Assembly (NCBI GenBank): GCA_029856145.1
Contig: JAHQWK010000004.1
Coordinates: forward strand, 160,001 to 224,000
Origin: Promethearchaeia archaeon
Lineage (GTDB): Archaea > Asgardarchaeota > Lokiarchaeia > Sigyniarchaeales > SOKP01
Length of the DNA stretch: 64,000 bases
Reading direction: 5' to 3'
A program made the translations under genes and the position numbers. A model generated the notes under the pieces. That model searched no databases. It saw nothing but the letters and a program-made list of their open reading frames with translations, and had not been told where the DNA came from. Shown here piece by piece: positions 34,927-43,986 of this stretch; the stretch's first letter is position 1, and every line of letters begins with the position of its first letter.

Positions 34927-35694
34927 TTATTTTCCCATTCTTCGATTTCTTCTTAAATAATCTTCTATATCTTCAATTACCATTTCTTTATTATAATCAG
35001 GCCATAAATCCTCTCTAAATTTAAATTCAGCATAAGAAGAATCCCATAACAAAAATCCTGAGATTCTTGCTCCATCATCCATTCCAGTTCTAATGATGTA
35101 ATCTACTGGAGGGAAATTTTTCGTATAAAGATATTTTTTAATTAAATCCGTATTTACATCTTCTGGATTAACACCATCACTGATTATTTCCTTTACAGCG
35201 TCGACTATTTCTTCATGACCATCATACATAATACAAAGGTTTATGAAATTTTGGTCATGTTTCTTAGTAAATTCAATTAATTCTTCAATTTTTTTCTTTG
35301 CATTCTCTGGTAACATTGATATCCTACCAATAACATTGAATTTAACTTTTTCTTCTTTGACAATCGATTCATTTATTACCGTATCGACTGCTTTAATCAC
35401 TATCTTATAAATATACTCAAGTTCCTCAGGTTTACGTTTTTTCACATTTTCAAGTGATAAAATATACAAACTTAAATATTGGATCCCCGCATCAAAAAAA
35501 TCAAATAGCCTCTTTTTGAGGTTTTCATATCCGACTAGATGACCAAAATTGATATCAAGGTTTCTTTTTTTCGCCCATCGTCTGTTTTTGGTTAAAGGGG
35601 GAAATCCCTTTTAAATACCATCAATGATGAGCCCGATATGCTTAGGTAACCTATCTTTTCCAGTTTTTTTTAATTCTTCTAAAGTAGTGACCAT
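34927..35694 (-). CDS. uppS: cis-prenyltransferase (undecaprenyl/dolichyl-PP synthase) split by a 30-nt insertion; exons 35694-35616 and 35585-34927, 245 aa if spliced
   Basis: Removing 35586..35615 restores PKHIGLIIDGNRRWAK; also GH, LSLEN, YDG, DYIIRTG, RISGFLLW, YAEF, LWPDY, RNRRMGK. Confidence 0.9.
35586..35615 (-). other. Putative bulge-helix-bulge mRNA intron (30 nt) in uppS
   Basis: Sense strand TTG ATGG TA|T TTAAAAGGG ATTTC CCCCTTTAA CCAA AA|A CAG; contains an in-frame TAA. Confidence 0.75.
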
Positions 35695-35790: not shown

Positions 35791-36095
35791 TTAAACTCTT
35801 ACCAACTTAACATCGTTGATTGGGTTTATTTTTTTAGAACAATCAGGAGGAATTTTAAATTTATAAGCGATTATCTCATCTTTCATTGACATGTCTAGCT
35901 TTTCCTCTGCCTCATAATAGATTCAATTTCATCAAAAGTGCTTATCTCATCGATGTTGATATTCAGCAATAAGAATGCATACTGAATGAACCTTGCACGA
36001 GAGATATAAATTACTGTCTCCTCATCTTCGAAGCGAAGTGATAAATATTCATTTACTATAAATTCTTGCATGTTTTCTTTGAGTAGGTTTTTCAA
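35791..36095 (-). pseudogene. Frameshifted, truncated N-terminal domain of a multicopy family I recall from Lokiarchaeal LRR proteins
   Basis: EFIVNEYLSLRFED...LLLNI...FDEIESI continues in another frame as (D)EAEEKLDMSM...IPPD and then decays. Family assignment is from recall. Confidence 0.6.
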
Positions 36096-36345
36096 TATTA
36101 TAATATTACCTATTTAAATTGAACGACTCCACAAATTTAAATCATTATCCTCATAATTAATGATAAGTGAGATAATCATATGACAAATCTTTAGATTATT
36201 ACTCTTCATACTCTTATTATTCGAAATTATCATTCATATCATTAATTTTAAATACTATTTTGCAATACTTTGGTTTAATTAGATAAGTTTTTGAATAAAT
36301 AAATATTACATTAAAGAAAAAAAAAGAAATTCAGAGATACGGTTA

Positions 36346-43019: not shown

Positions 43020-43986
43020 ATGGGAGTCGGAAAAGGATATGGAAAGACCATACTTTTTGGTGAAATTATTTTCCTATTTCAGGAATAAACACTATCATTT
43101 TGTTGTGTATGGTCTTCCAGCAATCGCATCAGCTTTAGGATCCTCTACGACTGCTGAAGTTAAAGTAGTCAAGGGTAATGGTTGGACAGTTAATGATCAA
43201 AGACTTGCAACACCAGGTTACAAAAAGAAGAAATTCAATGAGGCAATACAATCAATTAAAAATGTAATTGAACATTTGAGAGTGGATACCGAGAATAAAA
43301 AACTTGAAATAAAATTTGCGGGGGATCTGATTGCCGCTAGCGGAGTAGGTGCTTCAGCTGCTCAATGTACATCACTTTCCCGAGCTTTAAATGACACGTT
43401 TAATCTCAAATTAACTGAAAAAAAGATAAATGAGGCAGCTTATGAAGGAGAGAAAGCCTATCATGGTACTCCTTCAGGTATTGATAACACAGCCTCTACT
43501 TATGGTGGTTTAATTTGGTTTGTTAAAAACTTGAGAGGGGGGGAAAATACGATGGAACTTCTACAGTCACCAAAGAAAATGCCCTTAGTAATAATAAATT
43601 CAGGAATAACAGCTTCTACAACAGAAGTAGTAGCTGATGTTCGACGTTTAAAAGAGGAATCTCCTTTAAAATTTGAAAAAATCTTTAATAATTATGAAAA
43701 ATTAGCATTAGCAGCAAAAAAAGCCTTACTTGAAGGAAATATTAACACTGTTGGTGACCTAATGAATCAAAACCACAAATTACTACAAGATATAACGGTA
43801 TCTGGAGAGATTAATGATAAATTAGTCGAAATCTCCTTACGAAATGGGGCTAAAGGTGCTAAAATGACAGGAACAGGGCGAGGTGGTTTGGTCATAGCAT
43901 TAGCTGAAAATGAAGAAATTCAAGATGAAATCGCCAAAACTATTGAAAAAAAAGGATATAATGCCTGGAAAACCATGATTGGATGA
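43020..43986 (+). CDS. mvk: Mevalonate kinase split by a 31-nt insertion; exons 43020-43064 and 43096-43986, 311 aa if spliced
   Basis: ATG directly follows the upstream TAA. Removing 43065..43095 restores GKTILFGEHFVVYG; also SGVGASAA, HGTPSGIDN, GAKMTGTGRGG. Confidence 0.9.
43065..43095 (+). other. Putative bulge-helix-bulge mRNA intron (31 nt) in mvk
   Basis: T GGTG AA|A TTATTTTCCT ATTTC AGGAATAAA CACT AT|C A; GGTG pairs with CACT; frameshifts the gene and has TAA in the exon-1 frame. Confidence 0.78.

What the first reader, a model, noticed from the sequence alone, without database searches (positions are those of the whole stretch)
35586..35615. Second candidate BHB micro-intron, in the DGNRRW motif of uppS
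Seen: the gene starts at ATG 35694 (MVTTLEELKKTGKDRLPKHIGLIIDG), then 30 nt containing an in-frame TAA, then NRRWAKK. On the sense strand the outer helix is TTG/CAG, the central helix is ATGG/CCAA (3 of 4 pairs), the bulges are TA|T and AA|A, and the intron stem is TTAAAAGGG/CCCCTTTAA with loop ATTTC. Canonical BHB cuts restore GAT GGT A|AC AGA CGA TGG. Known: DGNxRW binds the allylic diphosphate and Mg in cis-prenyltransferases, so the 180-aa track ORF alone should be inactive. There is no target-site duplication.
Basis: partly seen in the sequence, partly recalled or inferred. Interest (0 to 1): 0.93.

Follow-up and report, generated by a model that had tools for sequence, protein, structure and literature searches.

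The report
tRNA-type mini-intron in Asgard uppS
The only gene for a lipid-carrier enzyme (uppS) in this Asgard archaeon is broken inside its catalytic motif by a 30-base hairpin that relatives keep in the shape cut by the tRNA-splicing enzyme, so the message very probably has to be spliced; in the papers searched, this was reported inside an archaeal coding sequence only for the cbf5 gene.

Summary
Observation confirmed, reading supported. Removing 35586-35615 restores a 245-aa cis-prenyltransferase with DGNRRW, the genome's only PF01255 gene. The same 30-nt insert sits at the same site in 24 loci (23 genomes) of this Promethearchaeota family. Its stem, central helix and exon-exon helix covary: six pairs change on both sides, partly through synonymous codons. 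The exon-exon helix is intact in 24/24 carriers against 6/56 intronless alleles. Both exons are under purifying selection (dN/dS 0.04-0.14). The genome encodes a two-subunit EndA with the Aeropyrum-type specificity loop, plus RtcB. Eight more genes here carry 28-32-nt inserts of like build (mvk, rnhB, rpl11, rps3, aIF2-gamma, cspA, nifU, an FAD oxidase), as does tRNA-His. Aenigmatarchaeota carry unrelated perfect BHB introns at the same phosphodiester, several beside LAGLIDADG-like genes. Caveats: no RNA data; the BHB is relaxed; in this allele the frameshifting 28-nt register folds slightly better. Most likely an obligate EndA/RtcB-spliced mRNA intron (about 0.9). This scan had already noted this uppS intron and the class in other genomes.

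The parts
35616..35694 (-). uppS exon 1 (ATG to D-G plus the first base of Asn27)
   Evidence: dN/dS 0.14 among carriers
35586..35615 (-). 30-nt intron: 1 bulge nt + 9-bp stem + 5-nt loop + central-helix strand + 2 bulge nt; in-frame TAA at 35613-35611
34927..35585 (-). uppS exon 2 (rest of Asn27 to stop); spliced product 245 aa, PF01255
35622..35624 (-). 5' strand of the exon-exon outer helix (TTG), pairs with 35584-35582 (CAG)
   Evidence: intact in 24/24 carriers vs 6/56 intronless alleles; U-A to G-C double change
35618..35621 (-). exon strand of the central helix (ATGG)
   Evidence: middle two pairs kept in all carriers; U-A to C-G double change through a synonymous Asp codon
35588..35591 (-). 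intron strand of the central helix (CCAA)
35592..35614 (-). intron hairpin: 9-bp stem (one A-C mismatch) closed by the ATTTC pentaloop at 35605-35601
   Evidence: 92% of cells paired, 4 pairs with double changes; recovered by RNAalifold
35582..35584 (-). 3' strand of the exon-exon outer helix (CAG)
43065..43095 (+). sister 31-nt frameshifting BHB-type intron in the GE|H motif of mevalonate kinase, same ATTTC loop
   Evidence: present in 22 of 30 congeneric loci, central helix covaries (GGTG/CACT vs GGCG/CGCA)

Best explanation
The 30 nt are an intron of the archaeal tRNA type inside the uppS mRNA. Shown: the pre-mRNA can fold into a relaxed bulge-helix-bulge whose pairings are conserved by compensatory change, and cutting after the second nucleotide of each bulge removes exactly the 30 nt that restore D-G-N-R-R-W. 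Inferred: the two-subunit splicing endonuclease EndA, whose Aeropyrum-type loop lets it cut imperfect motifs, makes both cuts, and RtcB joins the exons. The 245-aa cis-prenyltransferase can then be made only after splicing, which must happen before a ribosome reaches codon 28. Inferred, less certain: the intron is one of a set of 28-32-nt introns of shared build (stem of about 9 bp, 5-nt loop, BHB ends) in several core mRNAs and in tRNA genes of this family. It persists because it lies in an invariant motif where only exact loss is tolerated, and it has been precisely lost and/or gained at least five times. I read it as a tolerated passenger, not a regulatory switch.
For: Only 30-nt deletions restore the motif. 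Single PF01255 gene. 24 loci in 23 genomes carry a 30-nt insert at the same phosphodiester, with varying stops (TAA, TAG, TGA, two, or none). 86.9% of cells paired against 29-55% for slid controls; 6 of 16 pairs with double changes. Exon-exon helix intact in 24/24 carriers vs 6/56 intronless. dN/dS 0.14, 0.036 and 0.12 for exon 1, proximal exon 2 and the rest; 0.06-0.12 for this allele against five relatives. Intron p-distance 0.24 against about 0.55-0.59 at synonymous sites. EndA alpha's best PDB match is A. pernix EndA with K44/R46 conserved (role of the loop in PMC3241643); beta subunit and RtcB present. Motif-free census: 42 of 48 coding insertions of 28-33 nt have a BHB at the protein-restoring register, 1.8 expected. 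Perfect BHB introns at the same site in 7 Aenigmatarchaeota loci. tRNA-His here carries two 30-nt introns, one with the identical build.
Against: No transcript, proteome or cleavage data; a search of metagenome contigs for spliced or unspliced junctions returned nothing. The central helix has only 2-3 of 4 standard pairs in 23 of 24 alleles, and its predicted pairing probability is often low. In this allele the 28-nt frameshifting register is 0.8 kcal/mol more stable. Carriers share ancestry: only 5 independent carrier/non-carrier pairs, all concordant or tied, sign test p about 0.13. The 48 census events come from a handful of distinct sites.
Confidence: 0.9

Rival explanations
1. Translational recoding: ribosomes read through the stop or hop over the 30 nt, helped by the hairpin, with no RNA cutting.
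For: The insert is a multiple of three, carries a stable hairpin, and one allele (L042) has no stop. Nine alleles of the second clade have a Gly codon at the landing position.
Against: No matched take-off and landing codon in this allele or in any of the 10 congeneric carriers. Stops vary in type, number and place. Readthrough would add 10 residues between the catalytic D-G and N-x-R. Sister introns of 28, 29, 31 and 32 nt shift the frame. Recoding does not explain the conserved exon-exon helix.
Confidence: 0.04
2. The gene is a pseudogene or is split, with the 180-aa downstream ORF (TTG 35469) doing some job alone.
For: As written in the DNA, the frame stops at codon 28. The genome is 97% complete, so a second copy cannot be fully excluded.
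Against: No other PF01255 hit. Codons 4-65, which the 180-aa ORF lacks, are under purifying selection equal to intronless alleles. No further lesion in this allele. The insert itself is conserved.
Confidence: 0.02
3. The intron is real but serves as a regulatory gate: splicing efficiency, including the competing 28-nt register, tunes isoprenoid synthesis together with the mvk intron.
For: Two genes of one cluster carry such introns near their 5' ends. This allele has two near-isoenergetic registers.
Against: Like introns occur in unrelated genes (rnhB, rpl11, rps3, aIF2-gamma, cspA, nifU). 38 of 48 congeners lack the uppS intron. uppS and mvk introns do not co-occur consistently (G009 has uppS only; G051 and G014 have mvk only). 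The 28-nt register cannot form in 17 of 24 alleles.
Confidence: 0.1
4. Assembly or sequencing artefact.
For: The genome is a metagenome-type assembly; reads could not be inspected.
Against: Homologous but diverged inserts at the same site in 22 other independently assembled genomes.
Confidence: 0.005

Closest known systems
cbf5 pre-mRNA intron of Desulfurococcales and Sulfolobales (Watanabe 2002; Yokobori 2009, PMC2738675)
   Same: Short intron in a coding sequence, relaxed BHB, cuts between bulge positions 2 and 3, border between the first and second base of a catalytic-motif codon, hetero-oligomeric EndA, patchy gain and loss.
   Different: Different host gene (cis-prenyltransferase) and phylum (Promethearchaeota). 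Fixed 30-nt length and stem-pentaloop build. One of at least nine such genes in a single genome rather than a lone case. cbf5 splicing is shown by cDNA; this one is not.
Non-canonical tRNA introns of Asgard archaea (bioRxiv 10.64898/2026.10.13.758758)
   Same: BHB boundaries, repeated independent change, two-subunit EndA in most Asgard genomes. A tRNA-His intron of this genome has the identical 30-nt build.
   Different: That study covers tRNA genes only ('mRNA' does not occur in its text). Here the host is an mRNA, and the exon strands are built from synonymous codon positions.
EndA-processed BHB in the 5' UTR of Haloferax HVO_1309 (PMC7714728)
   Same: An mRNA substrate of the splicing endonuclease.
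   Different: Lies in a 5' UTR and does not interrupt a reading frame.
T4 gene 60 translational bypassing (own knowledge)
   Same: A short non-coding gap with a stop codon and a hairpin.
   Different: Needs matched take-off and landing codons and a stop directly after take-off; neither is present in this allele.

Membership tests
Archaeal EndA-spliced (BHB) intron | Two 3-nt bulges on opposite strands, 4 positions apart, flanked by helices | tested here: met
   Geometry met in relaxed form: outer helix 100% paired, intron stem 92%, central helix 66% with the middle two pairs kept in all alleles
Archaeal EndA-spliced (BHB) intron | Strict canonical BHB with four standard central pairs | tested here: not met
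   3 of 4 in this allele, 4 of 4 in only 1 of 24; relaxed motifs are the rule for cbf5 introns too
Archaeal EndA-spliced (BHB) intron | Cuts after bulge position 2 restore the functional product | tested here: met
   Gives DGNRRW and 245 aa here and an open NRRW frame in all 24 carriers
Archaeal EndA-spliced (BHB) intron | Structure, not sequence, is conserved | tested here: met
   6 pairs with double changes; 0/500 shuffles reach the covariation score; slid controls far lower. Relatedness inflates the shuffle test.
Archaeal EndA-spliced (BHB) intron | Host encodes a broad-specificity EndA and a ligase | tested here: met
   Two EndA subunits, alpha with the K44/R46 loop; RtcB. Specificity is inferred from sequence.
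Archaeal EndA-spliced (BHB) intron | Spliced RNA and EndA cleavage observed | not testable with these tools
   No RNA data; junction search in metagenome contigs found nothing
Homing (mobile) intron | Own or adjacent homing endonuclease | tested here: not met
   No PF14528 or PF00961 in this genome; no similarity to the Aenigmatarchaeota endonuclease-like ORFs near any Loki carrier. Other endonuclease families were not searched.
Translational bypass element | Matched take-off and landing codons with an adjacent stop | tested here: not met
Transposon or MITE footprint | Target-site duplication or further copies in the genome | tested here: not met
   No duplication in this allele; no second copy closer than 8 mismatches in 3.55 Mb
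Group I/II self-splicing intron or intein | Catalytic RNA core or protein-splicing domain, over 100 nt | tested here: not met
   The insert is 30 nt and is a single hairpin

The most novel reading that the evidence does not exclude
One family of Asgard archaea runs routine, protein-only mRNA splicing: a population of stereotyped introns of about 30 nt, shared in build with its tRNA introns, interrupts core genes (uppS, mvk, rnhB, rpl11, rps3, aIF2-gamma and others; some mRNAs twice), is removed by EndA and RtcB, and keeps being gained and precisely lost. The uppS Asn codon is a recurrent landing site, also used by unrelated introns in DPANN archaea.
Probability: 0.65. Interest if true: 0.92.

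Novelty: new variant of a known kind. Interest (0 to 1): 0.82.

Why it matters
In the papers I could search, an EndA-type intron inside an archaeal coding sequence is reported only for cbf5, and the recent Asgard intron census treats tRNA genes only. If spliced, this intron makes the lipid-carrier synthase, and at least eight other proteins of one Asgard genome, dependent on mRNA splicing in close prokaryotic relatives of eukaryotes. That bears on how splicing coexists with coupled transcription and translation without a nucleus. It also means such genes are mis-called as truncated or absent in Asgard annotations. The substrate is small and the enzymes are named, so the claim is directly testable in vitro.

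Tried and rejected
A loose genome-wide BHB-plus-ORF scan gave as many hits with shifted control geometry as with the canonical one (about 1,700 each) and was dropped. A tighter scan (28-33 nt) was usable: 99 loci against 53-57, and 16 against 2-4 when the loop ends in C; about half of those 16 are probably still chance. No sequence donor of the intron was found in the genome. No homing endonuclease was found in this genome or beside Loki carriers. Transfer of the intron with its flanks from the second clade into G009 was considered because both use ACGG/CCG flanks; the rest of the G009 flank follows its intronless sister, so parallel compensation is the simpler reading. A search for spliced junctions in metagenome contigs found nothing, which is uninformative. 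Three single-contig genomes of the sister family (G032, G038, G078) lack the uppS and rnhB introns, and G032 and G038 lack the mvk intron; from memory two of them match the cultured Lokiarchaeia in size, so their transcriptomes would not test these sites. Bacterial and chance hits of the GTDB pattern scan gave no long frame after deletion and mostly no central helix. The rpl11 pattern parse gave some false 15-nt and 62-nt calls, which I ignored. No structure prediction was run; the active-site role of D-G-N-x-R rests on the PDB alignment and my own knowledge.

Full report
Observation. The gene lies on the minus strand from ATG 35694 to TAA 34927. Read through, it gives ...HIGLIIDG, ten extra codons with TAA as the second, then NRRWAKK and an otherwise intact protein. 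Of all deletions of 10-59 nt, only 30-nt deletions in three neighbouring registers give an open frame with DGNRRW (245 aa); the BHB geometry picks 35615-35586. The product is a cis-prenyltransferase (PF01255), the only one in this 97%-complete genome. An intronless orthologue aligns with solved UppS structures straight across DGNxRW. The 180-aa ORF from TTG 35469 lacks that motif and the following histidine; by established knowledge of the family it cannot be active. The gene is divergent from an isoprenoid cluster: HMG-CoA synthase, UbiX, AcnX, mevalonate kinase and IPK-IDI2 by Pfam.

Relatives. In the genus, 10 of the 48 genomes that cover the site have a 30-nt insert at the same phosphodiester. 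Fourteen more loci in 13 genomes, a clade almost all from a second genus of the family, have it too. Most records of these carriers are titled Promethearchaeota or Promethearchaeia; a few carry other labels. All 24 inserts are 30 nt. The stop is TAA, TAG, TGA, doubled, or absent (L042), so the encoded peptide is not what is kept. On the uppS gene tree the trait needs at least five changes; among the first 43 sequences a single carrier clade is rejected (AU p about 1e-9). Intronless alleles show no scar. Gain and loss cannot be told apart by these counts.

Structure is what is conserved. Against the drawn BHB, 86.9% of cells pair (29-55% for slid controls) and 6 of 16 pairs change on both sides. 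Two of those changes use synonymous exon positions: the Asp codon GAT/GAC with its intron partner (U-A to C-G), and the outer helix TTG/CAG to TGG/CCG. Both occur in G009 and in the second clade. The exon-exon helix is intact in 24 of 24 carriers and in 6 of 56 intronless alleles. Over five phylogenetically independent pairs it goes with the intron or ties, never against; that is too few for significance (p about 0.13). RNAalifold recovers the outer helix and the intron stem unaided, but not the central helix. The first intron base and the first base of each bulge vary freely, as unpaired positions should; the last intron base is A in all 24. The intron diverges about half as fast as synonymous sites (0.24 against 0.55-0.59).

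The gene is alive. Among carriers dN/dS is 0.14 for exon 1, 0.036 for codons 27-65 and 0.12 for the rest, close to intronless alleles (0.09, 0.03, 0.09). This allele gives 0.06-0.12 against five relatives. Both halves must therefore end up in one protein.

Machinery. The genome has two EndA genes and RtcB. The alpha subunit's best solved relative is A. pernix EndA, including the loop with K44 and R46, which confers cleavage of relaxed motifs (PMC3241643). This fits a central helix with only 2-3 standard pairs. Substrate range is inferred from sequence, not measured.

Register caveat. In this allele the intron base at 35592 can pair with the exon U instead of the intron U, giving a perfect TGGT/ACCA helix and a 28-nt cut. 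That fold is 0.8 kcal/mol lower and yields a 43-residue dead end. The extra pair can form in 7 of 24 alleles, and the full four-pair helix in only two. Its outer helix would begin with an A-A mismatch in all 24. The conserved register is the 30-nt one, but this allele may splice less efficiently or partly wrongly.

Not alone. Leads from earlier scan notes were checked. A fixed-architecture scan (1+9+5+9+4+2 nt) found uppS, aIF2-gamma, cspA, nifU, rps3 and RNase HII. A flexible scan added mvk (31 nt), an FAD oxidase (32 nt) and rpl11 (28 nt, perfect central helix), with 16 loci against 2-4 in shifted-geometry controls. In congeners the mvk intron occurs in 22 of 30 loci, rnhB in 29 of 30, aIF2-gamma in 4 of 30, and the 28-nt rpl11 intron in 4 of 30. 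A census that finds insertions by protein alignment alone gave 48 of 28-33 nt; 42 have a BHB at the protein-restoring register (1.8 expected), against 2 of 17 for other lengths. These events come from a handful of sites and are not independent. rps3 carries two such inserts in G017 and G021. tRNA-His of this genome becomes a high-scoring cloverleaf after two 30-nt introns are removed, one of them with the identical stem and pentaloop layout. A common origin with tRNA introns is plausible; no sequence donor was found.

Same site elsewhere. A GTDB-wide pattern scan found seven Aenigmatarchaeota uppS loci with 16-33-nt inserts at the identical phosphodiester. All have perfect four-pair central helices, and their stems do not resemble the Loki intron. 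Five lie beside LAGLIDADG-like ORFs. No such gene was found in this genome or beside Loki carriers. Homing is a possible past route of arrival, not a present one.

Rivals. Bypassing lacks matched codons in this allele and in all 10 congeneric carriers. Readthrough would put 10 residues into the active site and cannot handle the frameshifting sister introns. Pseudogene and artefact are excluded by selection and by the relatives. A regulatory gate on isoprenoid synthesis is not excluded, but the introns sit in unrelated genes and the uppS and mvk introns do not co-occur consistently.

Known work. cbf5 of Crenarchaeota is the precedent (PMC2738675). PMC7714728 calls it the only earlier mRNA example and adds a 5' UTR case. 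The 2026 Asgard census deals with tRNA genes only. Searches for Asgard or DPANN mRNA BHB introns found no report; the library lacks most subscription papers. Within this scan, the same uppS intron was noted in two other Lokiarchaeia genomes and the class in at least 17 genomes. Those are AI notes and I do not count them as support.

Verdict. It works like the cbf5 intron and meets every testable feature of a relaxed BHB intron; it fails the strict four-pair definition, and splicing is unobserved. Probability of a spliced EndA/RtcB intron about 0.9. New variant of a known kind. Interest 0.82.

Noticed in passing
window 43065-43095 (+): 31-nt frameshifting BHB-type intron in the GE|H motif of mevalonate kinase; in 22 of 30 congeneric loci; outer helix has only one pair.
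   Followed up: yes
G000:C18:61155-61184 (+); L120:206-235: 30-nt BHB-type intron in the DEAG|RG motif of RNase HII, present in 29 of 30 congeneric loci (29 nt in G023); absent from five more distant genomes checked.
   Followed up: yes
G000:C28:14768-14741 (-); L125:1242-1269: 28-nt intron with a perfect central helix in ribosomal protein L11; also in G004, G006 and G021. Other congeners have inserts at two further sites near the start of rpl11, exact lengths unresolved.
   Followed up: partly
G000:C5:34200-34229 (+); C8:31453-31424 (-): 30-nt inserts in the P-loop of aIF2-gamma (4 of 30 congeners) and in rps3; G017 and G021 carry two inserts in rps3.
   Followed up: yes
G000:C6:11627-11598 (-); C10:33334-33363 (+); C2:161153-161184 (+): BHB-type inserts in cspA, a NifU-domain gene and an FAD-linked oxidase; recovered by my scans, relatives not checked. 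An intronless cspA paralogue lies on C12.
   Followed up: partly
L127 (G000:C2:140150-140450); L128, L129, L130: tRNA-His with two 30-nt BHB introns that ARAGORN misses; other tRNA-like loci with 30-nt introns of the same build. ARAGORN finds only 27 tRNAs in the genome.
   Followed up: partly
L221, L230, L242, L254, L255, L258, L259: Aenigmatarchaeota uppS genes with perfect 16-33-nt BHB introns at the same site; five beside LAGLIDADG-like ORFs; L230, L255 and L259 have a second frame break about 20 codons downstream.
   Followed up: partly
L042 (G044): uppS intron allele with no stop codon; the unspliced message would give a 255-aa protein with 10 extra residues in the active site.
   Followed up: no
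L084 and L114 (G084); L079 and L087 (G130): Two uppS copies in one genome. G084 has an intronless copy plus an intron-bearing one at a contig end that groups with another genus (contamination or transfer).
   Followed up: no
window 35791-36233 (-): Between uppS and HMG-CoA synthase lie short broken ORFs; the 66-aa one has six paralogous stretches in the genome. G013 and G015 have an intact 316-aa ORF with a similar start here, so this looks like a decayed gene.
   Followed up: partly
L126 (G000:C32:34945-34974 +): Strong 30-nt BHB hairpin (perfect central helix, GATTC loop) that neither rescues an ORF in my scan nor yields a tRNA; unexplained.
   Followed up: partly
L096 (G139), L097 (G099), L098 (G110): uppS split or degraded in its 3' half in three family members; not examined for BHB.
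   Followed up: no
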